From contig JAUYHT010000006.1 in NCBI GenBank assembly GCA_030688545.1, forward strand, positions 270,001-302,000: 32,000 bases of DNA. Direction: 5' to 3'. Shown piece after piece: positions 5,819 through 30,981 of the stretch (the stretch's first letter is position 1; the number at the start of each line of letters is the position of its first letter). This DNA is from Candidatus Iainarchaeum sp. (GTDB lineage Archaea; Iainarchaeota; Iainarchaeia; Iainarchaeales; VGJJ01). Both the position numbers and the translations under genes were made by a program. A model generated the notes under the pieces. It had not been told where the DNA came from. It worked only from the letters and a program-made list of their open reading frames with translations, and did not search any database.

Positions 5819-5955
5819 GCGTCCTTCTCAACACGAAAAGAGAAAGGCGAAAAAATATTTCCGCGGGCGGGATTCATCCACCCACCAATGTGGGATAGGG
5901 TTCTCCCGAAAATGACCTAAAAAGAAAATGAGTGCACCTTGACTTTACAGGAAAA

Positions 5956-6030
5956 TGCCCCGAGCGGGATTCGAACCCGCGTCCCCACCGTGAGAGGGTG
6001 ATATCCTTGACCGGGCTAGACGATCGGGGC
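5956..6030 (-). tRNA. tRNA-Glu (anticodon CUC)
   Basis: Hand-folded cloverleaf: acceptor GCCCCGA/TCGGGGC, anticodon stem TCACC/GGTGG, loop CTCTCAC, T arm GCGGG-TTCGAAT-CCCGC, discriminator A. 75 nt, no CCA, no intron, T-run after the 3' end. Confidence 0.9.
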
Positions 6031-6215
6031 ATCAGTTCTATTCCAAATGATTGGCCTACGGGGGGATTAAAAATCCCGCGACGGTTTCGATCGGGAGGGC
6101 TGGCCAGTACCCTGAAATGACCAGGTGACCGTTATTTCATTTGGGGGGCCCACTATTCCAAAAGAACCAGGGTGGTCCTTTTTAGGTACTTTTCACCCCA
6201 TGAGAATGATAATCC

Positions 6216-11488: not shown

Positions 11489-11520
11489 TTTTTGATGAAA
11501 CTTTTTTCTAAAAAGTTTCA
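11489..11520 (-). terminator. Copy of the T-tract palindromic element, 30 nt 3' of the multicopper oxidase stop
   Basis: tttttgatgaaacttttt-tct-aaaaagtttca. Perfect 11-bp inverted repeat 11496-11506 / 11510-11520 with T5-6 tracts on both strands. Confidence 0.5.
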
Positions 11521-14316: not shown

Positions 14317-14348
14317 GAATCCGAATAGATCACGAAATTATTAAATCA

Positions 14349-14422
14349 TGCCTCGGGGGAGACTTGAACTCCCGACCTCCGGGTTATGAATCCGGCGCTC
14401 TAGCCAACTGAGCTACCAAGGC
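14349..14422 (-). tRNA. tRNA with anticodon CAU (elongator Met, or Ile2 if C34 is modified)
   Basis: Acceptor GCCTTGG/CCGAGGC, D arm GCTC-AGTTGGCTA-GAGC, anticodon loop TTCATAA, T arm GGGAG-TTCAAGT-CTCCC, discriminator A. 74 nt. A31-C39 mismatch at the base of the anticodon stem. Confidence 0.85.
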
Positions 14423-14457
14423 AGGGTTTCGCCCCTGCGCGACGAGGGACTACGTTA

Positions 14458-16978: not shown

Positions 16979-17171
16979 AAGAGGACTATTTGGAAAATTA
17001 TAAGGATACTTTTCAGGATGCATTAGAAAAGGGAATCCAAAATGGTTTGAAAAGGGGGCCCAGACTGGCGGGGGGGAATGGTATGTTCCCCTTCTTGGGT
17101 CCGAGGCCTCTGGGGAATAACGGTCAAAACGGCCACTGGGCAACTTTTTTTGAATAGGCTTTTGCCAAATA

Positions 17172-17243
17172 AGCCTCTGGCGAGAGTTGAACTCGCGACC
17201 TCCACATTACCAATGTGGCGCTCTACCACTGAGCTACAGAGGC
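17172..17243 (-). tRNA. tRNA-Thr (anticodon GGU)
   Basis: Acceptor GCCTCTG/CAGAGGC, D arm GCTC-AGTGGTA-GAGC, anticodon arm CCACA-TTGGTAA-TGTGG, T arm GCGAG-TTCAACT-CTCGC, discriminator U. 72 nt. Confidence 0.9.
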
Positions 17244-17273
17244 CGTTTTCCTAAAGAGCACGCGGGGGAATCC

Positions 17274-20132: not shown

Positions 20133-20204
20133 GGCCCGTGCGGTGTGACGGTCGCATCCCAGCCTGTGGAGCTGGTGGAGGGGGTTCGACTCCCCCCATG
20201 GGCA
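20133..20204 (+). tRNA. tRNA-His (anticodon GUG) with a genome-encoded G at -1
   Basis: G(-1) at 20133. Acceptor GCCCGTG/CATGGGC (one G-U), anticodon arm CCAGC-CTGTGGA-GCTGG, T arm GGGGG-TTCGACT-CCCCC, discriminator A at 20204. Confidence 0.9.
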
Positions 20205-20253
20205 CTCATTTGGTAACAGTTTGAGGGGAAATTATCCTCTTTTCAACAAATTA

Positions 20254-21032: not shown

Positions 21033-21106
21033 GCCCGTGTGGTGTAGTCTGGACAGCATAAAAGCTTGCGGAGCTTTAGACCTGGGTTCAAATCCCAGCA
21101 CGGGTG
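21033..21106 (+). tRNA. tRNA-Arg (anticodon GCG)
   Basis: Acceptor GCCCGTG/CACGGGT (G1-U72 wobble), anticodon arm AAAGC-TTGCGGA-GCTTT, T arm CTGGG-TTCAAAT-CCCAG, discriminator G. 74 nt, followed by a hairpin ggggatt..aatccc and T-runs. Confidence 0.85.
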
Positions 21107-21283: not shown

Positions 21284-22474
21284 TCAGCTCGACCCGGGAG
21301 GATAAGGGTTGGGTGCGGGAGCGGGGATGGGGGCGGGAGGAGCATCCGCGGGAGGCTCTTCCACGTGCTCGTACGTGGGGGTGCTGACATCGTCAGTGGT
21401 GGGAGGGGGCGAATAGGACCAGGAGGAGGGAGAGCTGGGGGTTTCGGGCACCGGTTCGGGGGCGTCTTGGCGCACGTCCTGCTCCCACCCCGCGATAGGA
21501 GAAGTTGGGATATAGGTTTCTTTGGGGATGTAGTTCGAGGCGATTGTTCCAAACACCGTGGCCATGGGTTGAATAATGAAGGTGGCGGCGAGAAAGTAGA
21601 GCAGCGAGCCCAACAGCGCGGCGAAAACCCAATAGTTTTCCCTCACGAAGGTGAAGCCGGGAACCTTGTCTTGCACCTGCGCCACAATAGCTTGCGGATC
21701 GAGTTGGCTTTGTTGTTCCCGCACTTGCGCCAGGATGGCGGCGCGATAGGATGGATCATCCAGGCTGGCGAGAGTGAGGTCGATGAGTTGGACGAAGGAT
21801 TGGGCATCCGGGTCACTGCTGCCCCGGAGGTTCTGGAAATCAACGGAGGTGGTGATTTGGGTTAGGGTGTTGCGCTGGGATTGGATGAGGAAATCCGCTG
21901 TCACCTGATCCACGTCCAATTGAGAAAGGATGCGTCCTCCGAAGAGGGAGGCCTCGAAATCATGGTAGAGGGCGTCCCCCTGCGGCGCGGCGAATAAAGC
22001 CAGCGTCACCAGTACCCCGACCCCTAAAATCTGGAGTCCACGTTGCGCCCCATTGAAGCTACTGCGGAAAACGGGGAAGTTCTTGAGTTCCATTCGCTTG
22101 ATGCGCGTGGTTTCAAGCATGAGGGGGATGCTTCCTAAGTAGAAGAGGGACAATGGATACCATTGGGCGAAATTCCCCCAAACCACAGCGGCAATGGCCA
22201 GGGCCAGAATCGTTGGAATGAGGGTCGCGATGTACACCCTGCCCCTTTCGTCCTTGTCCGAGTAGGCGGTGAACAATCCGATAGTGAGAGAGAAGAATAC
22301 TGCGAATAATACAAATGTTCCGCTGATCAACACACTCAGAGCGTCCACATTTCCGATGGCCGTGAGCAATTGGTCAGGGGTCAGGCGGAGTTCATTGAGG
22401 AAAAAGGCCCACGCGAGCGTGGTCAGGAACACGAGTGCGCCGATTATGAGCGGCTTGTGCACATCCTCATTCAT
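21284..22474 (-). CDS. Integral membrane protein with a Pro-rich C-terminal tail, unknown function
   Basis: ORF 21284..22648. The ATG at 22474 forms an ATGA overlap with the MetAP stop (22471-22473). Several TM helices; the tail reads ...PEPVPETPSSPSSWSYSPPPTT...PPADAPPAPIPAPAPNPYPPGSS. Confidence 0.6.
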   Translation of the reverse strand: MNEDVHKPLIIGALVFLTTLAWAFFLNELRLTPDQLLTAIGNVDALSVLISGTFVLFAVFFSLTIGLFTAYSDKDERGRVYIATLIPTILALAIAAVVWGNFAQWYPLSLFYLGSIPLMLETTRIKRMELKNFPVFRSSFNGAQRGLQILGVGVLVTLALFAAPQGDALYHDFEASLFGGRILSQLDVDQVTADFLIQSQRNTLTQITTSVDFQNLRGSSDPDAQSFVQLIDLTLASLDDPSYRAAILAQVREQQSQLDPQAIVAQVQDKVPGFTFVRENYWVFAALLGSLLYFLAATFIIQPMATVFGTIASNYIPKETYIPTSPIAGWEQDVRQDAPEPVPETPSSPSSWSYSPPPTTDDVSTPTYEHVEEPPADAPPAPIPAPAPNPYPPGSS

Positions 22475-23376
22475 ACCAGGCGCTTGACTGAATCCTGGTT
22501 TATTAACATGGTAGTCTCGAATTGGGCCACGATGGCCCCCTTCTTCTCCCGCAACACTGGATGAGGGGTGATGGCACCAAATTTCACCAGGTCGCGCAGC
22601 GCGGTCTTTCGGGAGAAATCCGACATATCCAAATCGCGGGCGAGCCATCGTTCCGCGAAGGGCAATCCTTCATAGTGTTCGAGGCAGAAATCAACCATGC
22701 GGCGCGCATGGGGATTGCGAACGGGCACCTTTTCATGCACTTCGAAAATTTCTATTTGGGGGGCCTCGAAAATTTCTCCATTTCCCCGGATGGAAGCGAA
22801 GGGTTCCATGGCGTAGGCATGTCCCTCTTCAATGGGGGATGGGTCGTCATTGGCAATATTTGGAATGGTAGGGGAACAGTGAGCCGTGTAGGCGTCGAGT
22901 CCGTGGCCGGACAAGTTGAGAATGGGATCCACCCCATATTTTTTCAGGGTGCCCCCGATGGCGGCTCCAAGAACTCGTACTTCCACTCCCATTTTGACTT
23001 CCTTGAACCCCGCTTCCAGAGCGGCTTGCGTGGCGGTGACCAAGTTGGCCACTTCCGCGTCGCCAGAGAAATCAAGTGTGAAGGCCGCGTCGACAATGTA
23101 CCCGTCATGGTGCACCCCGATGTCCACTTTCAACACATCCCCTTTTTTCACCAGCGTCTCGTCCCCGGCGGATGGAGTATAGTGGGCGGCGATGTCATTC
23201 AGGGATAAGTTGATGGGAAAGGCGATGCCGCACCCGTTTTTTTTTGTCAAGGCCTCAATCTCTTCCGCGATATCCAATAGTTTCACTCCCGGCTGGATCA
23301 TATCCCGCGCTTTCTGGCGGCAGAGCGCATGCACTTTAGCGGCGGTCTCGTAATGGGCAACAATGAGGGGGTCCAT
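22471..23376 (-). CDS. map: Methionine aminopeptidase (archaeal/type-2-like)
   Basis: Metal ligands lie in VDIGVHHDGYIVDAAF, GHGL, YAMEPF and AQFETT. The length and the inserted helical subdomain are typical of archaeal MetAP. Confidence 0.9.
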   Translation of the reverse strand: MDPLIVAHYETAAKVHALCRQKARDMIQPGVKLLDIAEEIEALTKKNGCGIAFPINLSLNDIAAHYTPSAGDETLVKKGDVLKVDIGVHHDGYIVDAAFTLDFSGDAEVANLVTATQAALEAGFKEVKMGVEVRVLGAAIGGTLKKYGVDPILNLSGHGLDAYTAHCSPTIPNIANDDPSPIEEGHAYAMEPFASIRGNGEIFEAPQIEIFEVHEKVPVRNPHARRMVDFCLEHYEGLPFAERWLARDLDMSDFSRKTALRDLVKFGAITPHPVLREKKGAIVAQFETTMLINQDSVKRLV

Positions 23377-23513: not shown

Positions 23514-24335
23514 CTAAATTGAAATGGGTTCCAGGAAGCGGGCGTGTGGGAAACTTAAGCGAGTGGATTCAATCTTTTTGATTTCATCAATATAGATTTT
23601 CCTTATGGCATCCTTTACTTTATCATTTAGCACCACATTTCGAGCCTTTGCAATTTCACCTTTCTTAGCCAATGATATAACTGATTTCTTATTGCCACCA
23701 TACTTTATGAATAGAACTTCAGGAAGACGATTATTTCCAGATAAAAAATCGCCAAATGGTTCGTGATGTTTTTCGAAGTAATCTTGAATGTCGTCATTAA
23801 TTTGTCGAATTATTCCTATAGAATGAGCAATTTTTTCTAATTTTTTACTCGGTTTTTTATTTGCTAACAATTGTCCCACATTAAATCCCGTAGAAACATG
23901 CCCACCCGTGAATAAACGAACAGCTAGAAAATAGTTTTCAAAACTACTTGACTTGTTTGAGGAGGAGATTAAAATCTCACCACGATATAAGTCAAATAAA
24001 TAACCATGAATAGCTTGAAATAATTCAATCTTAAATGAATCCTTTGTTTTTAATAAATTAGAAATCTTTGTCATTTTTCGAATGGATTCAAACCGCAGTT
24101 TTTCTGCTTTGATTATAGTAAATGGAATTCCTTCTTGAACATAAATACAAGCTTTTCCGTTACGCGTTTTTGAGGCATCAATAATATCATCAAGCATCAT
24201 TACAGAATCATCAAGACCATTAGATATTTCTCTAAGCAATTTTTCATGGTTGGATGGAAACTTTTTTGCAGTTGCAAACTCATATCCTGCTTTCACATAT
24301 ACTGCAAAACTTTTTTCGAATTTTTGCAATGCCAT
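23514..24335 (-). CDS. Short polyprenyl (trans-isoprenyl) diphosphate synthase-like protein
   Basis: Both aspartate-rich motifs are present (MMLDDIIDASKTRNG and QINDDIQDY). At 273 aa it is shorter at the N-terminus than typical enzymes. The gene is very AT-rich. Confidence 0.65.
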   Translation of the reverse strand: MALQKFEKSFAVYVKAGYEFATAKKFPSNHEKLLREISNGLDDSVMMLDDIIDASKTRNGKACIYVQEGIPFTIIKAEKLRFESIRKMTKISNLLKTKDSFKIELFQAIHGYLFDLYRGEILISSSNKSSSFENYFLAVRLFTGGHVSTGFNVGQLLANKKPSKKLEKIAHSIGIIRQINDDIQDYFEKHHEPFGDFLSGNNRLPEVLFIKYGGNKKSVISLAKKGEIAKARNVVLNDKVKDAIRKIYIDEIKKIESTRLSFPHARFLEPISI

Positions 24336-24448: not shown

Positions 24449-26863
24449 TTAGTTAAACGCCCCCAGCCCGGTCTGTTTTCCTTGATTGCGCAAATCATGG
24501 GGGTCGTATCCCAGTTCCACGAGAATACGTTCGATGGCGGGTACAACTTGGTGGAGAATGTAGTATTCGGCGTCGTAGTCCCCTTCTTTCACGAATTCCT
24601 CGAGTTCGGCTTTCTCTGAAATGGTTTTTCCTTTGGTAGTTATGATGAACCCCAGCATGGCCCCCACTCGGATGTCTTTCCCCCGCTTCATGGCCTTGAG
24701 CGCGGCGGAGACATGGGGGGTTGTTGTAGCGTAGGATGAGGGACGGCGCTGCATCTGGGTGTGTACTACTAAATCCTTATTGGGAATTTTCCCTTCGCGG
24801 AGACGGGAAATAGTCAGTTGGACGGCTCTCAGCGCGGCCTCGGGATTCCCATTCACGAGGACTTCCTGGAGCACGGTCTTCTGCGTCTCCCGCGCAACCT
24901 TGGACCAGTCGCGCCGCACATACTCGAATCCAACGATCGTGAGTTGGTTGTCATAGTCCGCGAGGGCGTATCGTTTCTTGGCCGCGTGCCCCTCTTTCCT
25001 GGTGACAAAAAGCCCGCGCTTGTAGAGGCCTTCGAATTCCAGTTCCATAATGCCGGGCAGAGTTTTGTTTATTTTCTTCACGAGCGCGTGCATATCCTTT
25101 TCGTTTTTATCTGGTGGCAACAACAAAAATGCCGAATCTGTATCTGTGTAAATGGCAGTATATCCTTCTTTTTCAACATCCACAAGTGTCTTCTGAATAT
25201 AGTGCCGCGCCCACGCAGTAATAGCCCGGGCGGATTCGCGGGAGTACCAGCGGAAGCGTGGAAATCCGAGCGTCCCAAAGAAGGAGTTGAGCAGTATCTT
25301 CAACGCCTGCTTGCGTGCTTTCAGATTGGGCTGGCGCGGATCGTCTTTGGAAAGGGTATCCATTTCTTTCTGCACGGCGATGCGCTGGCGGAGGATATCA
25401 TCCATCACTGAGGCGACCAATCCTTTTTCTTTGGTGCAGAACCAGTGCCCCGTGGGGGCGCGGTTGGGGCCTTTCTGGCACTCCTTATGCGCACAATCCA
25501 GTGTCTCGGGGGAAATGTTGTGCGAGATCATAATACTTGGATACAGGGAGCGGAAGTCCAACACCGCCACGTGCGAATGCAAGCCGGCCGTGGGTTCCTT
25601 CACGTAACCCCCTTCGATGGGATTCTGGGTGCGGGCATTCACCTGTTCGTCCGTGGGGGGACTAGGGATGGGAATGTTTCGTGTTACACATTCGGCGAAA
25701 AGCACGGCCTCCACCAATTGGGAGGCGGTGGCGCGGCACGTATCCGAGACTGACAATCGGACGATTCTGGATATCTCGAGCAGGAGGGGAAGGAATTCCA
25801 GGGCGAGACGCTGGGTGAAAATAGTGTCATTGAGGTTGTAGAGGGCCAATTTTTCTAATCCTTTTTTGGTTTGCCAGATTTCGCGGATCTGAACATGGGT
25901 CAGCGTTTTCTCCCCTTCCCCGAAAACGGCCTGCATCACACTCCCCAAATCCAATTTCACGGTTTTGAGGGCCTGAAAACGATTCAAGAGGCGGGCGAGT
26001 TGCAACACATCCACGTGGGGCATCCCTTTTACCCGGGCTTCGTGCCCGCTGCCACGTCCCACGAGTTGGGGTTCACCAAATCCAAGGTCCAGGGACACCC
26101 CATGTTTCTGGGCGCGCGCCAGGAGAAAAGGAAAATCAAACCCATCACCATTGTAGGTGGCAATAATATCCACATTCGCGAGACGAAGGAATGTGATGAA
26201 TTGTTCGAGAAGATGTTTTTCATCCCGAACCAAAGTGGTTAGGTCATCCACATGCTGGGGCATGAACACTTTGTTTCCTTCAGGAGTGGTAATGGCAATG
26301 GAAATGATTTCATCCGCGTCAGAATTGGGCGAAGTCCCTAACCCACATGTTTCGATGTCGAAAGAAGCAACTCGCCAAGACGCGGGGGGTGAATCGAGGG
26401 AAGAAATTGAATGGATATCTCCTGTTTGGTTTAGCGTCAATTCAATTTTCTGATTGGGAATGAGTTTTTTATCCAGGAGATAACGCCGGGTGTAGGGGAT
26501 GTTATACTCATGCATCTCCTTCACATGAGGATAGCGGAGAATCAGCTCCCTCACCCCTAATAGGTCGGGAATGCGGTGGAAATCCAAGCGGATAAATACC
26601 TGGTTGGCTCGGGTGACTTTTTGGACGTGAGCAAGGCGGATACCTCCAGGGAACGTCTCATTTTCAAGGCTGGAAATCATTTCGGGAATGGGGAACCGGG
26701 AATCACATGTTATGTAGAAGTAAGGGGGGAATGTTCTATCCAGGAACAATTTCACCCCTCCCGGGGTGCGGACATATACCTCCACGACGCTCTTTCCCTG
26801 GTCTTCGTGCATCTGCACATCTAACAGCCACCCCTCCCCTGTTTCCTTGCTGCGCGAGGCCAT
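24449..26863 (-). CDS. polB: DNA polymerase, family B
   Basis: Exo I FDIETCG, Exo II YNGDGFDFPFL, Exo III YNLNDT. Pol motifs: A DFRSLYPSI, B KILLNSFFGTLG, C YTDTDS. 804 aa, no intein. Confidence 0.95.
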   Translation of the reverse strand: MASRSKETGEGWLLDVQMHEDQGKSVVEVYVRTPGGVKLFLDRTFPPYFYITCDSRFPIPEMISSLENETFPGGIRLAHVQKVTRANQVFIRLDFHRIPDLLGVRELILRYPHVKEMHEYNIPYTRRYLLDKKLIPNQKIELTLNQTGDIHSISSLDSPPASWRVASFDIETCGLGTSPNSDADEIISIAITTPEGNKVFMPQHVDDLTTLVRDEKHLLEQFITFLRLANVDIIATYNGDGFDFPFLLARAQKHGVSLDLGFGEPQLVGRGSGHEARVKGMPHVDVLQLARLLNRFQALKTVKLDLGSVMQAVFGEGEKTLTHVQIREIWQTKKGLEKLALYNLNDTIFTQRLALEFLPLLLEISRIVRLSVSDTCRATASQLVEAVLFAECVTRNIPIPSPPTDEQVNARTQNPIEGGYVKEPTAGLHSHVAVLDFRSLYPSIMISHNISPETLDCAHKECQKGPNRAPTGHWFCTKEKGLVASVMDDILRQRIAVQKEMDTLSKDDPRQPNLKARKQALKILLNSFFGTLGFPRFRWYSRESARAITAWARHYIQKTLVDVEKEGYTAIYTDTDSAFLLLPPDKNEKDMHALVKKINKTLPGIMELEFEGLYKRGLFVTRKEGHAAKKRYALADYDNQLTIVGFEYVRRDWSKVARETQKTVLQEVLVNGNPEAALRAVQLTISRLREGKIPNKDLVVHTQMQRRPSSYATTTPHVSAALKAMKRGKDIRVGAMLGFIITTKGKTISEKAELEEFVKEGDYDAEYYILHQVVPAIERILVELGYDPHDLRNQGKQTGLGAFN

Positions 26864-26898
26864 ACCTCTTTTTTAAGCCCCGACCGGTCTTTTAATCC
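26864..26898. promoter_or_regulatory. 35-bp bidirectional promoter spacer (polB and the 155-aa coiled-coil gene)
   Basis: Two opposed A/T boxes, ttttttaag (26870-26878) and ttaaaag on the minus strand (26890-26896). Each lies about 20-30 nt from the ATG it faces, implying very short or no leaders. Confidence 0.4.
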
Positions 26899-27366
26899 AT
26901 GCCCGACCCCCTCCCAGCCGGTTACCCGGCGCCTCCCCGCCCCCAAGGAGGGACGGATTACCTCTACACCCTCAACCGGGACCTCAAAGCCCTCAACGCC
27001 TCCGTCCTGGTCATCACCCAGAAGATCAAGTACCTCGTCCGCAACGAGAAAATACTCGGAAGAAATCTCATCATCATCAACAAGCGGGTCAAGGAACTCT
27101 CCACCTCCCTCGCCCAGACGCAAGGGGAAGGGATGTCCGATGAAACTAAACAACTCGTCTCTGACCTATCCCGCCAGGCGAGCGCCTTATCCTCCCAGCT
27201 CGTCCAACTGGAATCAAGGCTCGACACCCTCTCCCGCTCCGCCGCCAAGCAGGACGAGGTGAAAGAACTCAAATATATCATCGATGGGATGAACCCCTTG
27301 CATTACGTCACCCGCGAGCAAGTGGAAGAACTGATTGATAAGCGGTTGGGCGAACGGAAAAAATAA
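26899..27366 (+). CDS. Coiled-coil protein (155 aa), unknown function
   Basis: Pro-rich N-terminus MPDPLPAGYPAPPRPQGG, then heptad-like stretches (LNRDLKALNASVLVITQKIKYLVRNEKIL..., LSRQASALSSQLVQLESRLDTLSR). No family recognised. Confidence 0.6.
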   Translation: MPDPLPAGYPAPPRPQGGTDYLYTLNRDLKALNASVLVITQKIKYLVRNEKILGRNLIIINKRVKELSTSLAQTQGEGMSDETKQLVSDLSRQASALSSQLVQLESRLDTLSRSAAKQDEVKELKYIIDGMNPLHYVTREQVEELIDKRLGERKK

Positions 27367-27369
27367 ATC

Positions 27370-27536
27370 CTTTTTCCTAAAAAGCGTTCGTTTTTTTGAT
27401 CAAACTTCATCGTAAACACTATTTTCCGCCAACGCTTTTTCCAGCGGAAAAAGGGTTGTTACGATGCTCGCAAAACATAGTTTTGCTTGGTTTCCTAAAA
27501 AGTTTCTTTTGATGAAACTTTTTTTTAAAAAGTTCG
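27370..27536. repeat. Array of T-tract palindromic repeat units between convergent genes
   Basis: Units ctttttcctaaaaag-cgttcg-tttttttgatcaaa (27370-27404), ctttttcc-agc-ggaaaaag (27435-27453), tttcctaaaaagtttc-ttttgatgaaa (27491-27517) and cttttttttaaaaagttcg (27518-27536). Confidence 0.7.
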
Positions 27537-29078
27537 TTATGAGAACAAGAAGTCTCCCACCACGCGCTGGGAGTAGGTGTCTCTCAGGGTGACGCGGTAG
27601 TTTTTGCGGCCCACCAAAGCCACTCCGGCCTGGCGTCCGCCGATGACGGAGATTTGGGCGTCGCAGAGGTTGCGGACATTCTGCGGGAGATCGATGCCGT
27701 GGGCTGAAGAGAGGATAAACCCCACGTCCTGGGTGTTGCTCTCGCTCAACAGCCGTTCCAGTTCCCGGTGCAAGGCGGGTTCCCGGCGGGGGTCGAATAG
27801 GGGCATGGCCTCTGGAATGACAATGAGGGATTTCATTCTATCGGATACTCCTTTCCGGGTGTACCAGGAATAGATCCCCTTCATGATGGTGTACACCAGG
27901 AGGTTGCGCAGGCGCGGGGGGGTATGAGGCAGACGCACAACTCCTATTCGTCCGATGGATTGGAACCAGCTCTTGGATATCTCCTCAATAGGATTGGTCC
28001 CGTCGAATAGTTTGGGGAATGTTTGGTCCAATAGGGTAAGGAGTCGTATGAGGCTGTTGATCTGGAAGGAGGAGAATGTGTCCGAGGGGGGGAGTTGTCT
28101 CAAAATGCGCACCCCTTCGTCAATGGAGGTCACGGAATGCTCGCGCAGAAATCGAGCGAGGTGCAATCCCAATTCATGATGCTCCAATCCCAGTATTTCC
28201 ACCATGGCCTCAGGAGGAACAGTTGAGAGTTCGATCTTCAAATTTTCGAAAGGCAGGAATTCCTTCAGGGGAAAACCAATGGGGTCCCCTTCAATCTTTT
28301 GCATGTGCAACGTGTCCGCGCTCGCGTTGGGATTGCGCATGACCGAGAATGTGTTGTTCCAGTCCATTATGACCACGGGGATGTTGGAGAATAAGGCCCC
28401 TTCCGCGATGACCTGAAGCACGTGTTCCCGGTGCTCTTTCCGCCCCCCTTCCACAAGGGTTTTCTTGAAGAAGAGAATGGGTTCCTTCACTAGCAATCCT
28501 GCTTGGGTCGTTCCCAATATGAATTCCCCGGGAAGCGCCCCGCTATGCGCTTGCGGCGTGCGAATAGTCTGATCCCCCTCGCGGGAATAGTGGGCACTCG
28601 TGGCGAGCATGGGAATGAGCATGGGCGCGCTGAAGAAGGCATTCCGCACCTTCTCATTGGTCTGGGCTAATGGGGTCATCTGGATGTCATAGGCCCGTGC
28701 CACTTCTTTCAGCAGGGAGTTCCCCACCTCTATTTTCTTGAGAAGTATATCCGTCTGCTCGAGCACGATGCCCTCCTCCCACGCCACCGACACGGGGTCG
28801 CTGCCCAATATGAGAAAGGTATGCGTCTCGTCCACGCTGTGTTTAGTCCATACCAATAAGTCCCGTGGCAGGGTTTGAACAAACCCCCGGACATCTCCAG
28901 TGGCCTCGTACACCTGGTAGAATTCGCACGTGGCTTGGGTGAATGTTCCCCCTTCCGGGTGCAGGGTTTGGATGTAGATCCATTTTTCGGGGCTCGTGTA
29001 CACCTCGAGTGACTGATCCTGGATATTCCCTTTCAGGAGCAGCGACCAGGGTCCTTGGGCGATCTTGAACAACGGCAT
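27537..29078 (-). CDS. HerA/FtsK-superfamily (DUF87-like) P-loop NTPase homolog with degenerate Walker motifs; function unknown
   Basis: 513 aa. TLVEGGRKEH...VVIMDWNNTF sits where HerA has GxTGSGKS...hhhhDPHGEY. SLIVIPEAM sits where the Walker B hhhhDEAH lies. DVGFILSSAHGIDLPQNVRNLCDAQISV resembles the HerA GhhhhhsQRP..VLSQC block. By-eye alignment only. Confidence 0.45.
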   Translation of the reverse strand: MPLFKIAQGPWSLLLKGNIQDQSLEVYTSPEKWIYIQTLHPEGGTFTQATCEFYQVYEATGDVRGFVQTLPRDLLVWTKHSVDETHTFLILGSDPVSVAWEEGIVLEQTDILLKKIEVGNSLLKEVARAYDIQMTPLAQTNEKVRNAFFSAPMLIPMLATSAHYSREGDQTIRTPQAHSGALPGEFILGTTQAGLLVKEPILFFKKTLVEGGRKEHREHVLQVIAEGALFSNIPVVIMDWNNTFSVMRNPNASADTLHMQKIEGDPIGFPLKEFLPFENLKIELSTVPPEAMVEILGLEHHELGLHLARFLREHSVTSIDEGVRILRQLPPSDTFSSFQINSLIRLLTLLDQTFPKLFDGTNPIEEISKSWFQSIGRIGVVRLPHTPPRLRNLLVYTIMKGIYSWYTRKGVSDRMKSLIVIPEAMPLFDPRREPALHRELERLLSESNTQDVGFILSSAHGIDLPQNVRNLCDAQISVIGGRQAGVALVGRKNYRVTLRDTYSQRVVGDFLFS

Positions 29079-29147
29079 GGGGATTCCAACGGAAGAGGTT
29101 TTTTATAGCAGGGTTGGTTCCTATTTAAAGCGCACGCGAGGCTGGCC
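29079..29147. promoter_or_regulatory. 69-bp bidirectional promoter spacer (HerA-like gene and the 201-aa coiled-coil gene)
   Basis: Opposed A/T boxes: tataaaaaac on the minus strand (about 29099-29108) and tatttaaag (about 29124-29132). Confidence 0.4.
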
Positions 29148-29753
29148 ATGGTCAATGACGAAATCATCCTCAACACCATTCGCAAGATGCAGGACGCGGG
29201 TCTCTCGGATAACATCATCCGTTCTACTCTTTCTGACCTGGGGTTGGGCAACGAGCAGGTCCAATCCTTCCTCTCCCGCGCGGGAATAAAAGACTCATCC
29301 CAAGGTCTTTCCTTTCCGGCCTCCCCCCCTCCTCCCTTATCTGAAAAACCCAATACGGCTTCCAGGGGAGAATCCAACCCTTCCTTGTCAGAAGCCGACC
29401 ACGAGGCCATCGCTTCCCGCACGAGCGAAGTGTTGCAGCAGCAGATGGCCCATCGGGAACAGTCCATACAAAATGAGCATTCCCTGCGTGACAGCATCAC
29501 CCATTTGGCACTGGAACAGCACGGCGAACAATTGAAGGACACCCACTCCGCGGTGGTCGAGCTCCATGACCGGCTGGACGGGATGAATATCGATACCCTT
29601 TCTTCCCGCCTCGCTGGATTAGGCACGCGCACGGATGTCATCGCCAATGACGTATCCGAAATTAAATCCCGCATGGGGGCTTTGAATGCCCTGATGCAGA
29701 AAGTCCTTGAGACGGAACAGAAACTCTTGTTCGGGAGCAAGGACAAGAAATAG
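29148..29753 (+). CDS. Coiled-coil protein (201 aa) with a small helical N-domain and a Pro/Ser linker, unknown function
   Basis: MVNDEIILNTIRKMQDAGLSDNIIRSTLSDLGLGNEQVQSFLSRAG, then PASPPPPLSEKPNTAS, then a long heptad-like C-terminal half. The antisense 243-aa ORF is Cys/Ser/Arg-rich and judged spurious. Confidence 0.6.
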   Translation: MVNDEIILNTIRKMQDAGLSDNIIRSTLSDLGLGNEQVQSFLSRAGIKDSSQGLSFPASPPPPLSEKPNTASRGESNPSLSEADHEAIASRTSEVLQQQMAHREQSIQNEHSLRDSITHLALEQHGEQLKDTHSAVVELHDRLDGMNIDTLSSRLAGLGTRTDVIANDVSEIKSRMGALNALMQKVLETEQKLLFGSKDKK

Positions 29754-29793
29754 CCTTTAGTCATTTGCCCCCGATGTTCTTTTCGACAGAATA

Positions 29794-29961
29794 TTTTTCT
29801 AAACCGTTTTCTTGTAAATTTTTTCTAGGTCGTTTTTGATCGCCCTTTTTTCTAAAAGGAGGGTTTTTGATCAAACTTTTTCCCAAAAAGTTTGATGAGG
29901 AAGCTTTTTTCTGAGTCGATTTTTTGATAAAACTTTTTCCTAAAAAGTTTTTAAAAAAGTT
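29794..29961. repeat. Six tandem degenerate 25-31-nt units of the T-tract palindromic repeat between convergent genes
   Basis: Units start at 29794, 29819, 29845, 29876, 29904 and 29933, with consensus about CTTTTTTCTAAAAAG-N-TTTTTGATCAAA. Perfect palindromes: tcaaacttttt-ccc-aaaaagtttga (29871-29895) and aaacttttt-cct-aaaaagttt (29930-29950). Confidence 0.8.
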
Positions 29962-30366
29962 TCATTTGAAGAGCTTGTGTAGCCCGTCCCAGAATTGTTC
30001 CGCCATGGTGGCGAGGGCGTGCATGGGTTGGGGGATGTTCCATTGGTAATTGTATGCGTCCTTATAGGATTTGGCTCCTTTGGGGAGGATGGTTTCTTGG
30101 GTCTTCTCCGAGAGGGCTTTTCCTATGTTTTCGAATGTCCCTTTGGGATGGCTTCCTTTCGCCGCTTCCATGGCGTGGTATTCCTCCTCGTATATTTTTT
30201 TGGCCTTTTCAATCCCTTTTTTGGCCCCTCGGGTAATCGTCCGAGTGGAATAGAAAACCATGTACACGAGAAATAGCAGGCCGCCTGCGATTAGCCAGAA
30301 TAGGTTTCCCGTCGCCGCGAGCGCCACGAGAATGACTAATAGCAGAATCCATCCTCCCTCACTCAT
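29962..30366 (-). CDS. Small membrane protein (134 aa: two N-terminal TM helices plus a soluble Lys-rich domain)
   Basis: Third gene of a tight operon. Its ATG (30366) overlaps the upstream stop in TAATG. Confidence 0.6.
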   Translation of the reverse strand: MSEGGWILLLVILVALAATGNLFWLIAGGLLFLVYMVFYSTRTITRGAKKGIEKAKKIYEEEYHAMEAAKGSHPKGTFENIGKALSEKTQETILPKGAKSYKDAYNYQWNIPQPMHALATMAEQFWDGLHKLFK

Positions 30367-30731
30367 TAGTGGCCGCCCCCCATGCCTCCAAATCCACCCA
30401 TTCCTCCTCCCATGCCGCCGCCCATACCCCCATCCATTCCCTGGAGCATCGCCAGCATGTCGGGGGACATCGCGGCCTGTTCCTCCGAAGGCTTCACTCC
30501 CACAAAATAGGCCAATCCCACGAGCGCCACGACGACATAGAGTAATTCTCCTTTCAGCGCCCCCCCGAAGATGAAAAATACGACCCCTGTCACGAGCGTG
30601 AGCAATATTCCCGGAATTGAGCGTAGGCTGATGAGCAAAAATACGAGGATGGCGAGGCTCAGCCAGATCTGGCTGTATTGCATGGTGAAGGCCAGCAGGA
30701 ACACCGCCACCGCGTACGTGAAGGAGTCCAT
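30366..30731 (-). CDS. Small polytopic membrane protein (121 aa) with a C-terminal (GGGM)n tail
   Basis: About 4 TM helices, then ...MLAMLQGMDGGMGGGMGGGMGGFGGMGGGH*, verified codon by codon on the minus strand. Confidence 0.6.
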   Translation of the reverse strand: MDSFTYAVAVFLLAFTMQYSQIWLSLAILVFLLISLRSIPGILLTLVTGVVFFIFGGALKGELLYVVVALVGLAYFVGVKPSEEQAAMSPDMLAMLQGMDGGMGGGMGGGMGGFGGMGGGH

Positions 30732-30738
30732 GCGTCGT

Positions 30739-30981
30739 TCACTTCCCGAAGACGTTCACTTTGGTGAAAACGTCTTTTCCGAATGTAGCGAAAGCCCATA
30801 AAAAAACGAGCCCCCACACGAGCTCGGGAAACTGGTAAAACGTGAGGAACATGATTACAAGGGCCGTGACGAAAGCGAGCTTGGTGCTCCCCACATTTCC
30901 TTTGGCCCAGTTGTAGATCCAGATGAATAGGAATATGGTGATGGCCAATTGGACGTTTTCCGTGAGGGATTGGAGGAGCAT
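30739..30981 (-). CDS. Small membrane protein (80 aa)
   Basis: First gene of the three-gene operon. AGGAG lies 4-5 nt upstream of the ATG and a TATA-like cttaaataagg about 35 nt upstream. There is a 7-nt gap to the next gene. Confidence 0.55.
   Translation of the reverse strand: MLLQSLTENVQLAITIFLFIWIYNWAKGNVGSTKLAFVTALVIMFLTFYQFPELVWGLVFLWAFATFGKDVFTKVNVFGK

What the first reader, a model, noticed from the sequence alone, without database searches (positions are those of the whole stretch)
26864..30981. HerA/DUF87-like protein with eroded Walker motifs, paired with coiled-coil proteins next to PolB and a tiny-membrane-protein operon
The 513-aa product of 27537-29078 aligns by eye to the HerA branch of the FtsK-HerA P-loop superfamily at three points. 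KKTLVEGGRKEHREHVLQVIAEGALFSNIPVVIMDWNNTF (aa ~205-244) sits where HerA proteins have G-x-[ST]-G-S-G-K-[ST] followed by hhhhDPHGEY. MKSLIVIPEAMPLF (aa ~415-428) sits where the Walker B hhhhDEAH lies. DVGFILSSAHGIDLPQNVRNLCDAQISV (aa ~451-478) matches the G-h-h-h-h-x-[ST]-Q-R-P...V-L-S-Q-C block. There is no GK[ST] (GGRKEH instead) and the Walker B Asp is Pro, so canonical ATP hydrolysis looks lost and this may be a pseudo-ATPase scaffold. It shares a 69-bp bidirectional promoter with a 201-aa coiled-coil protein. PolB next door shares a 35-bp bidirectional promoter with a second coiled-coil protein (155 aa). Both divergent pairs end in arrays of the same repeat, followed by a three-gene operon of 80-, 121- and 134-aa membrane proteins. 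No NurA-like nuclease partner is present. I know of no described system with this composition.
Basis: partly seen in the sequence, partly recalled or inferred. Interest (0 to 1): 0.7.

Follow-up and report, generated by a model that had tools for sequence, protein, structure and literature searches.

The report
ATPase-dead HerA ring protein cluster
A small-genome (DPANN) archaeon carries a conserved gene for a HerA-type ring protein that has lost every ATP-burning motif, always next to the same helical, small membrane and DNA polymerase genes, so it probably acts as a scaffold in an undescribed cellular machine rather than as a motor.

Summary
The 513-aa protein (27537-29078, minus strand) belongs to the HerA clade. 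The evidence is a family profile hit to Sulfolobus HerA (E 5.6e-7), Foldseek hits that are all HerA-type (best E 6e-12), and Pfam DUF87 hits in 16 of 20 relatives. It founds a family of at least 191 clusters at 50% identity, named so far from Iainarchaeota/Diapherotrites and Micrarchaeota. None of 149 full-length members has GK[ST]. The lysine position is Arg in 85%. The first Walker B acidic position is Pro in 62% and Asp in 5%.

Gene order is kept from 74% down to about 20% identity: small membrane proteins, a divergent 201-aa helical partner, the HerA-like gene, a convergent 155-aa coiled coil, then a divergent PolB and MetAP. Deep-branching loci add a giant surface protein in front.

The "same repeat" is a genome-specific, terminator-like palindrome also found elsewhere in the window. 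It is not part of the system.

Best reading: a nucleotide-independent HerA-like ring acting as a scaffold in a housekeeping, probably envelope-linked complex, next to a separable cc155-PolB module. Function is inferred, not shown. This is a new variant of a known kind, of moderate interest.

The parts
27537..29078 (-). HerA-like protein (HerAL, 513 aa). It has a beta-rich N-domain (aa 12-99), a helical region, and a RecA-like core with a helical insertion. The P-loop is degenerate (G211-G-R-K-E-H-R217-E), Walker B reads LIVIP422-E423, and the sensor strand reads VGFILSSAH.
   Evidence: ORF. Homologues: 32 and 191 clusters at 50% identity. AF2 model. Foldseek hits to HerA. Profile against PDB. 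Column statistics.
29079..29147 (.). 69-bp divergent promoter spacer. It holds two A/T boxes, 29099-29106 (serving HerAL on the minus strand) and 29122-29129 (serving cc201). Each lies about 18-22 nt from its own ATG.
   Evidence: Sequence. Both boxes are conserved across about 20 loci (TTTATATAC or TTTAAATAG, and GCTATAAAAA). Their role as archaeal TATA boxes for leaderless mRNAs is inferred.
29148..29753 (+). cc201, a 201-aa acidic partner protein (pI 5.4). It has an N-terminal 3-helix domain (aa 3-44), a disordered Pro/Ser linker (45-81) and two long helices (82-145 and 148-200).
   Evidence: ORF. AF2 model with pLDDT 83.7. Family of 65 members. It lies divergent to HerAL in 27 of 28 related loci.
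26899..27366 (+). cc155, a 155-aa basic coiled-coil protein (pI 9.3). It carries a nearly invariant helix QK.KYLVRNEKILGRNLI..NK (aa 41-62), a C-terminal KY.ID..NPL..T..Q motif and a Lys-rich tail.
   Evidence: ORF. Alignments. At least 640 homologues. Heptad score above all shuffles. Its evolutionary rate co-varies with HerAL (partial Mantel r 0.54, p 0.005).
26864..26898 (.). 35-bp spacer between cc155 and PolB with two crossed A/T boxes, 26869-26877 and 26890-26896. Each box lies next to the other gene's start codon, 22-33 nt from its own.
   Evidence: Sequence. Length (34-36 bp) and both boxes are conserved in 17 of 22 loci.
24449..26863 (-). Family B DNA polymerase (804 aa), divergent partner of cc155.
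   Evidence: Pfam DNA_pol_B E 3.8e-59 and exonuclease domain E 1.4e-22. Adjacent in 26 of 28 related loci.
29962..30981 (-). Three-gene run of small membrane proteins: TM80 (30739-30981), TM121 (30366-30731, with a Gly/Met-rich tail) and TM134 (29962-30366, two TM helices plus a soluble tail).
   Evidence: ORFs. Hydropathy. TM80 and TM121 have recognisable orthologues down to loci whose HerAL is about 20% identical.
27367..27536 (.). AT-rich (GC 0.34) convergent intergenic region carrying copies of CTTTTTYCYAAAAAG-type palindromes. These look like bidirectional terminators and are not specific to this cluster.
29754..29961 (.). AT-rich (GC 0.31) convergent intergenic region with 3-4 copies of TTTTTGATxAAACTTTTTCCYAAAAAGTTT, the same terminator-like palindrome.
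21284..23376 (-). Conserved downstream extension of the block: methionine aminopeptidase (22471-23376) and a polytopic membrane protein (21284 to about 22474; its true start is probably Met59 of the listed ORF).
   Evidence: Pfam Peptidase_M24 in relatives. Synteny. Hydropathy and homologues.

Best explanation
HerAL is a catalytically dead member of the HerA clade of FtsK-HerA P-loop proteins. It is kept under strong purifying selection as a core gene of Iainarchaeota/Diapherotrites-type and Micrarchaeota-type DPANN archaea.

**Shown.**
- It has the HerA fold.
- The nucleotide-binding and hydrolysis residues are lost across the whole family, while other positions are invariant: W11, G189, E226, R345, R495 and R499, plus the GPW and PIGFP motifs.
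- Its gene neighbourhood is fixed.

**Inferred.**
- Like other HerA proteins it assembles into a ring. Here the ring would serve as a nucleotide-independent platform rather than a translocase.
- Its constant divergent partner cc201 and its convergent neighbour cc155 would bind it. cc201 has a small helical head, a flexible linker and a long helical pair. cc155 has an invariant helix and a basic tail.
- Through these partners the ring would be tied to a set of small integral membrane proteins. In deep-branching relatives those are co-transcribed with a giant surface protein.
- It would also be tied to the replication gene polB, whose promoter is interlocked with that of cc155.

The most likely role is a housekeeping, envelope-associated scaffold that links a membrane complex to DNA or the replisome, for example chromosome anchoring or partition. 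It is not a repair helicase.
For: **Fold and family.**

**Loss of motifs in all 149 full-length members.** The Lys position is R in 126 and K in 4. The Gly before it is E, D or H. The Ser/Thr position is K, L or R. Walker B position 1 is P in 93, E in 27 and D in 7. The HerA sensor motif QRP is not kept.

**Shortened P-loop in the model.** Strand 206-211 runs almost directly into helix 214-230.

**Strong constraint.** HerAL identity (61-65%) is about the same as PolB identity (58-60%) among close relatives. Several positions are invariant across 60-149 sequences.

**Synteny.** It is kept in 22 Iainarchaeum loci and in deep loci L002, L005, L023, L024, L026 and L027. The cc201/HerAL pair is never split except in L004.

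**Promoters.** The promoter boxes are conserved.

**Rate co-variation.** HerAL co-varies with cc155 (r 0.54, p 0.005) and weakly with TM80 (r 0.29, p 0.02) after removing species divergence.

**Surface-protein context recurs.** Giant CarboxypepD_reg or PKD proteins, or class-III-signal LamG proteins, lie nearby in L002, L004, L005, L023, L024, L026 and L027.
Against: - No physical interaction, oligomeric state, DNA binding or localisation has been tested. The scaffold role is inferred from motif loss and neighbourhood alone.
- The block also contains MetAP, which has no evident functional link, so part of the synteny may be inherited order in slowly rearranging small genomes.
- HerAL and cc201 show no rate co-variation (r -0.07).
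- L025 and L028 keep only cc201 and HerAL. L004 keeps HerAL and cc155-PolB without cc201 or the small membrane proteins. The full set is therefore not obligatory.
- R217, E226, D239 and, in part of the family, E423 could still form a non-canonical ligand site.
Confidence: 0.45

Rival explanations
1. The neighbourhood is only inherited gene order. HerAL would be the degenerate descendant of the repair helicase HerA. It would act on DNA on its own or with unlinked partners, for example as a passive DNA-encircling or end-binding ring used in replication or repair with PolB. The membrane genes would be bystanders.
For: - The best structural matches are archaeal HerA from Thermococcus and Sulfolobus.
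- PolB is adjacent in 26 of 28 related loci.
- MetAP, which is functionally unrelated, is equally syntenic.
- The block abuts the ribosomal-protein and RNA-polymerase superoperon, a region of generally stable order.
- Insertions are tolerated between HerAL and cc155.
Against: - The flanks outside the block vary while the block persists down to about 20% HerAL identity.
- The cc201/HerAL pair survives even where everything else has moved (L025, L028).
- The conserved divergent promoter architecture argues for selected co-regulation.
- HerAL co-varies in rate with cc155.
Confidence: 0.25
2. The cluster is a divergent Ced/Ted/type-IV-secretion-like, or type-VII-like, envelope conduit for DNA or for the giant surface protein. 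HerAL would stand in the VirB4/CedB/EccC position, the small 2-4-TM proteins in the VirB2/VirB3/CedA1/CedA2 positions, and the polytopic membrane protein in the VirB6/CedA position. Energy would come from elsewhere.
For: - The composition parallels Ced, which has a VirB4/HerA-like ATPase, the 6-7-TM protein CedA, and the two-TM proteins CedA1 and CedA2 (PMC9905601).
- There are arrays of small paralogous membrane proteins directly downstream of a giant surface protein in L002, L005, L023, L024, L026 and L027.
- EccC appears among the weak profile hits.
Against: - There is no motor. Every member lacks the Walker motifs.
- The membrane proteins show no sequence similarity to any PDB chain, including T4SS and Ced/Ted components, and none to any Pfam or NCBIfam family.
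- Foldseek ranks HerA proper, not VirB4 or TrwB, in the top 50.
Confidence: 0.12
3. HerAL is still an enzyme. A non-canonical site built from R217, E226, D239 and E423 would bind and hydrolyse a nucleotide or another phosphate ligand, and the protein would still translocate DNA.
For: R217 (85%), E226 (100%) and D239 (85%) are conserved and lie around the former nucleotide pocket. Glu at Walker B position 2 is kept in the window protein and its close relatives.
Against: - The glycine-rich loop that forms the phosphate-binding backbone is replaced by acidic or His residues and is shortened in the model.
- Position 423 is E in only 56 of 149 members.
- The HerA sensor motif QRP is not kept.
- R217 itself is lost in about 15% of members.
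Confidence: 0.08
4. HerAL belongs to an anti-phage defence system of the HerA type (SIR2-HerA, DUF4297-HerA).
For: Several top Foldseek hits are defence-system HerA proteins.
Against: - There is no PADLOC hit and no effector gene nearby.
- Synteny with PolB, MetAP and ribosomal genes is stable across a phylum-level range. This is the opposite of defence-island behaviour.
- The ATPase motifs are lost.
Confidence: 0.02

Closest known systems
Archaeal HerA (the HerA-NurA DNA end-resection helicase; PDB 4d2i, 9x1m)
   Same: The overall fold and domain order match: a beta-rich N-domain, then a RecA-like core with a helical insertion. It gives the best profile hit (E 5.6e-7) and the best Foldseek hits (E 6e-12 and 1.5e-11). 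The Walker B and sensor strands align residue for residue.
   Different: - There is no GK[ST]; the pattern is G-G-x-x-x-x-R.
- Walker B position 1 is Pro.
- The sensor motif QRP is lost.
- No NurA, Mre11 or Rad50 gene is nearby.
- The partners are helical and membrane proteins and PolB.
- The window protein itself does not reach any Pfam threshold.
Ced/Ted DNA-import systems and bacterial T4SS (CedB/VirB4 with CedA/VirB6 and CedA1/VirB2)
   Same: A HerA/VirB4-type P-loop protein is encoded with several small 2-4-TM proteins and a polytopic membrane protein.
   Different: - The P-loop protein is inactive.
- No membrane component shows detectable sequence similarity.
- The genes are core and syntenic with PolB and MetAP rather than damage-induced or mobile.
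- Two coiled-coil proteins have no counterpart in Ced/Ted.
Degenerate ATPase domains of FtsK-like EccC/EssC (type VII secretion)
   Same: They set a precedent for FtsK-HerA-type domains that have lost catalysis and serve as docking or regulatory modules for small helical-hairpin proteins. EccC is a weak profile hit (E 0.012).
   Different: EccC keeps one active domain in the same polypeptide and is itself membrane-anchored. HerAL is a single soluble domain set with no active copy nearby. No WXG100-type partner was identified.
Defence-system HerA proteins (SIR2-HerA, DUF4297-HerA, TdpAB, DndH)
   Same: Same fold. They appear among the top Foldseek hits.
   Different: They are active ATPases with nuclease or NADase effectors in variable islands. 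HerAL has neither feature.

Membership tests
FtsK-HerA superfamily, HerA clade | RecA-like P-loop core with HerA-type topology, recognisable by profile and structure comparison | tested here: met
   - Profile A4 against PDB: 4d2i at E 5.6e-7, YjgR at 7.5e-6, Deinococcus radiodurans HerA at 3.5e-4.
- Foldseek top-50 PDB hits are all HerA, TdpA or DndH.
- Pfam DUF87 hits 16 of 20 relatives, some above the gathering score.
- The window protein alone has no Pfam hit.
FtsK-HerA superfamily, HerA clade | Walker A motif GxxxxGK[ST] | tested here: not met
   There is no GK[ST] in the protein. At the aligned position, none of 149 family members has it; the pattern is G-G-x-x-x-[EDH]-R-[KLR].
FtsK-HerA superfamily, HerA clade | Walker B motif hhhh[DE]E, plus a sensor/arginine motif (QRP in HerA) | tested here: not met
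   Position 422 is P in 93, E in 27 and D in 7 members. Position 423 is E in 56 of 149. Where HerA has SQRP, the window protein reads S-S-A-H and the family is variable.
FtsK-HerA superfamily, HerA clade | N-terminal HAS-barrel domain | tested here: inconclusive
   The model has seven strands in aa 12-99, and Foldseek alignments span 570-680 columns. The N-domain was not compared on its own.
FtsK-HerA superfamily, HerA clade | Hexameric ring assembly | not testable with these tools
   No multimer prediction or model coordinates were available.
HerA-NurA end-resection system | Adjacent NurA nuclease (usually with Mre11 and Rad50) | tested here: not met
   No NurA, Mre11 or Rad50 family appears in the 19 window ORFs scanned or in the Pfam gene tables of 14 related loci.
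Ced/Ted/T4SS-type DNA transfer apparatus | Active VirB4/CedB-type ATPase | tested here: not met
   The ATPase motifs are absent. HerA proper, not VirB4, is the closest structure.
Ced/Ted/T4SS-type DNA transfer apparatus | VirB6/CedA-like polytopic channel and VirB2/CedA1-like small two-TM pilin | tested here: inconclusive
   Small 2-4-TM proteins and a polytopic protein are present. Profiles of TM80, TM121 and TM454 hit nothing in PDB, and scans of the window's membrane proteins hit nothing significant in Pfam or NCBIfam. No structural comparison was done.
HerA-based anti-phage defence systems | Match to a defence-system model plus a linked effector in a variable island | tested here: not met
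   PADLOC gives no hit. The context is a stable housekeeping block.

The most novel reading that the evidence does not exclude
The block would encode a previously unrecognised envelope-spanning machine specific to Iainarchaeota/Micrarchaeota-type DPANN archaea. Its parts would be:
- a giant surface protein;
- a multi-subunit complex of small membrane proteins;
- a cytoplasmic ATPase-dead HerA ring held by two dedicated helical adaptors.

Its expression would be hard-wired to the replicative polymerase through an interlocked 35-bp double promoter. It would couple chromosome replication or partition, or DNA or nucleotide exchange with a partner cell, to the cell surface, without a dedicated motor.
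Probability: 0.22. Interest if true: 0.8.

Novelty: new variant of a known kind. Interest (0 to 1): 0.55.

Why it matters
- HerA-type proteins are known as ATP-driven DNA translocases in repair, defence, secretion and conjugation. A whole, strongly conserved family that has discarded the ATP site but kept the fold would be a clear case of a motor turned into a scaffold.
- The family is a core gene in poorly understood, uncultivated small-genome archaea whose division, chromosome handling and cell-surface biology are largely unknown.
- Its fixed partners are two orphan helical proteins, orphan membrane proteins and PolB with an interlocked promoter. This gives a concrete, testable entry point into that biology.
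- It also provides a clean annotation rule: these proteins should not be called helicases or ATPases.

Tried and rejected
- **Window protein alone.** Pfam, NCBIfam, PADLOC and PDB sequence searches with the window protein found nothing. Only family profiles and structure gave the HerA link.
- **Coiled-coil partners.** hhalign of cc155 against cc201 shows them unrelated (probability 2%). Foldseek of the cc201 model found no hit with E below 1. Profiles of cc155 and cc201 against PDB hit only generic coiled coils.
- **Membrane proteins.** Profiles of TM80, TM121 and TM454 against PDB found nothing.
- **Genome scan.** The diverse alignment A4 was too divergent to derive search patterns. The scan with A1 found only Iainarchaeum-type genomes.
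- **Taxonomy of the deep loci.** Cluster look-ups gave almost no organism names. The only phylum names are Micrarchaeota (P0130) and Diapherotrites/Iainarchaeum.
- **Longer family members.** Extra-long members were checked for informative fusions and had none. P0130 has a low-complexity tail.
- **Repeats and RNA.** The idea that the intergenic repeats belong to the system is rejected. The palindrome recurs 3' of an unrelated gene and is absent from relatives. Rfam and tRNA scans found nothing in the region.
- **Literature.** Searches for an inactivated HerA in DPANN archaea found nothing relevant.

Full report
**What is in the sequence**

The window is archaeal. Exact matches for two of its proteins come from a 446-kb contig of a 'Candidatus Diapherotrites archaeon' MAG, with locus tags Q8P05_04475 and Q8P05_04485.

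| Gene | Coordinates | Strand |
|---|---|---|
| PolB | 24449-26863 | - |
| cc155 (155 aa) | 26899-27366 | + |
| HerAL (513 aa) | 27537-29078 | - |
| cc201 (201 aa) | 29148-29753 | + |
| TM134 | 29962-30366 | - |
| TM121 | 30366-30731 | - |
| TM80 | 30739-30981 | - |

Ribosomal protein S2 and RpoN follow. The quoted peptides lie exactly at aa 205-244, 415-428 and 451-478. The protein has no GK[ST]. The two divergent spacers are 35 and 69 bp.

**Is the 513-aa protein HerA-like?**

On its own it hits nothing in Pfam, NCBIfam, PADLOC or PDB sequences. It does have a family:
- 32 close homologues, all about 510 aa.
- 191 clusters at 50% identity in an exhaustive phmmer search. Most of the 150 best listed are full-length, down to about 20% identity.

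Three lines of evidence place the family in the HerA clade:
- Sixteen of 20 aligned relatives hit Pfam DUF87 (the HerA central domain) and one hits HerA_C. Some exceed the gathering score.
- A profile of 60 diverse members hits Sulfolobus HerA 4d2i at E 5.6e-7. YjgR, Deinococcus HerA, SIR2-HerA, EccC, DptH, TdpA and STIV B204 follow.
- An AlphaFold2 model (pLDDT 82.9) gives Foldseek top-50 PDB hits that are all HerA, TdpA or DndH, led by Thermococcus HerA (6e-12) and Sulfolobus HerA (1.5e-11). The viral library also returns HerA-like proteins first.

HerA-clade homology is therefore established.

**Are the ATPase motifs really gone?**

- HMMER aligns the family's 'livlpeaekl' with HerA 'iiaviEEaHvFl', and 'GiGfilsaese' with 'GVGLTIVSQRP'.
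- The model has strand 206-211, a two-residue loop and helix 214-230. R217 therefore occupies the first helical turn, where the Walker A lysine sits. Pfam DUF87 matches begin immediately after this point.
- Column statistics for 149 full-length members:

| Position | Canonical residue | Found in the family |
|---|---|---|
| 216 | Gly of GK[ST] | E, D or H |
| 217 | Lys | R in 126, K in 4 |
| 218 | Ser/Thr | K, L or R |
| 422 | Walker B acidic 1 | P in 93, E in 27, D in 7 |
| 423 | Walker B acidic 2 | E in 56 |

Other positions are invariant or nearly so: W11, G189, E226, R345, R495, R499, a GPW motif, a PIGFP loop and a C-terminal YRxxxRPxxS motif. Among close relatives HerAL is as conserved as PolB (61-65% against 58-60% identity).

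This is a selected, ancient loss of catalysis in a functional protein. It is not a decaying gene.

**The partners**

*cc155.*
- It belongs to a family of at least 640 proteins.
- It has a nearly invariant helix (QK.KYLVRNEKILGRNLI..NK), a C-terminal KY.ID..NPL..T..Q motif and a Lys-rich tail.
- Its heptad signal exceeds all shuffles.

*cc201.*
- Its family has 65 members.
- It is modelled (pLDDT 83.7) as a 3-helix head, a disordered linker and two long helices.
- It has no structural or sequence relative beyond generic coiled coils.
- It is unrelated to cc155.

*TM80, TM121 and TM134.*
- Each has 2-4 hydrophobic helices.
- TM80 and TM121 have recognisable orthologues in distant loci.
- No known family matches.

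**Conservation of the arrangement**

tblastn of the window proteins against 22 loci from Iainarchaeum-type genomes shows one order everywhere the contig allows:

TM80 > TM121 > TM134 > cc201(-) <> HerAL(+) >< cc155(-) <> PolB(+) > MetAP > a polytopic membrane protein.

Insertions occur only between HerAL and cc155, or between TM134 and cc201.

Loci whose HerAL is only 20-36% identical fall into three patterns:
- L002, L005, L023, L024, L026 and L027 keep the same core. They place a giant surface protein (1600-2900 aa, with CarboxypepD_reg or PKD domains) and 5-9 small membrane proteins in front of it.
- L025 and L028 keep only cc201 <> HerAL.
- L004 keeps HerAL and cc155 <> PolB, flanked by a secreted protein and a class-III-signal LamG protein.

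The block therefore consists of two separable modules: cc201 with HerAL and the membrane proteins, and cc155 with PolB and MetAP.

After regressing out species divergence, HerAL distances co-vary with cc155 (r 0.54, partial Mantel p 0.005). They do not co-vary with cc201 (r -0.07). This is a hint, not proof.

**Promoters and repeats**

- The cc155/PolB spacer is 34-36 bp in 17 of 22 loci. It has two conserved A/T boxes, each lying next to the other gene's ATG.
- The cc201/HerAL spacer carries two conserved boxes 18-22 nt from their own ATGs.
- I read these boxes as archaeal TATA boxes for leaderless mRNAs. That reading is an inference.
- The repeat arrays are AT-rich palindromes (AAACTTTTTYCYAAAAAGTTT) that place a T-run on both strands at convergent gene ends. 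The same element lies 3' of an unrelated multicopper oxidase gene at 11498 and is absent from all 25 related loci fetched by then. They are generic, genome-specific terminator-like elements.

**Interpretation**

*Shown.* HerAL is a HerA-fold protein without an ATP site. It is conserved as a core gene with a fixed set of neighbours.

*Inferred.* It forms a HerA-type ring that works as a nucleotide-independent platform. It would be bound by cc201 and cc155, connected to a small-membrane-protein complex, and transcriptionally coupled to PolB.

*Rivals.*
- Synteny by descent only, with a solitary DNA-binding role.
- A motor-less Ced/T4SS- or T7SS-like conduit. The composition parallels Ced (PMC9905601), but no membrane component shows any similarity.
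- A non-canonical active site.
- Anti-phage defence, which is effectively excluded.

**Novelty**

No paper in the searchable library describes this family or cluster. Public annotations read 'hypothetical protein' or 'DUF87 domain-containing protein'. I rate it a new variant of a known kind: an inactivated HerA subfamily with new partners. It is of moderate interest. The upside is an undescribed envelope-linked machine in DPANN archaea.

Noticed in passing
window 23514-24335 (-): A 273-aa polyprenyl-synthetase-like ORF (PF00348, E 3.5e-21) has GC 0.33, against 0.53-0.57 for both neighbours. It has no counterpart between PolB and MetAP in any of 22 related loci. It looks like a recent foreign insertion into the conserved block.
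   Followed up: partly
window 11498-11518, 27515-27535, 29873-29893, 29930-29950: The palindrome AAACTTTTTYCYAAAAAGTTT occurs only just 3' of genes, including an unrelated multicopper oxidase. Chance expectation is 0 matches, and it is absent from the 25 related loci searched. It is probably a genome-specific bidirectional terminator element.
   Followed up: partly
window 21284-22648 (-): The listed 454-aa ORF overlaps the 3' end of MetAP. Homologues start at its Met59 (about 22474). It is a conserved polytopic membrane protein with no known family, and it follows MetAP in most related loci.
   Followed up: partly
window 30397-30425 (within TM121): A 12-bp tandem repeat encodes a Gly/Met-rich C-terminal tail (GMGGGMGGGMGG...). 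The tail is present in close relatives and much shorter or absent in distant ones.
   Followed up: no
window 26864-26898 and the equivalent spacers in L001-L021: The 35-bp cc155/PolB spacer has crossed promoter boxes, so the two pre-initiation complexes would overlap almost completely. This raises the possibility of mutually exclusive firing of polB and cc155.
   Followed up: no
L023 10062-13937: PolB in this distant locus is 1291 aa and carries an intein (Intein_splicing plus LAGLIDADG hits).
   Followed up: no
L021 (JAGVNS010000035.1): The record is titled 'Thaumarchaeota archaeon', but it carries the complete Iainarchaeum-type cluster at about 61% identity. The bin is probably mislabelled.
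   Followed up: no
L023 5657-7360; L024 5248-6862: The deep-branching loci hold 3-4 paralogous small proteins. Each has an N-terminal TM hairpin and a tail motif resembling PIVVxxxxxxxxYPxxxxIxVxPxW. No obvious counterpart was seen in the window's three TM proteins, and the family appears to be undescribed.
   Followed up: no
window 5955-6031, 14348-14423, 17171-17244, 20134-20205, 21033-21106: Five tRNA genes (Glu-CTC, Met-CAT, Thr-GGT, His-GTG, Arg-GCG) are scattered among housekeeping genes upstream of the cluster.
   Followed up: no
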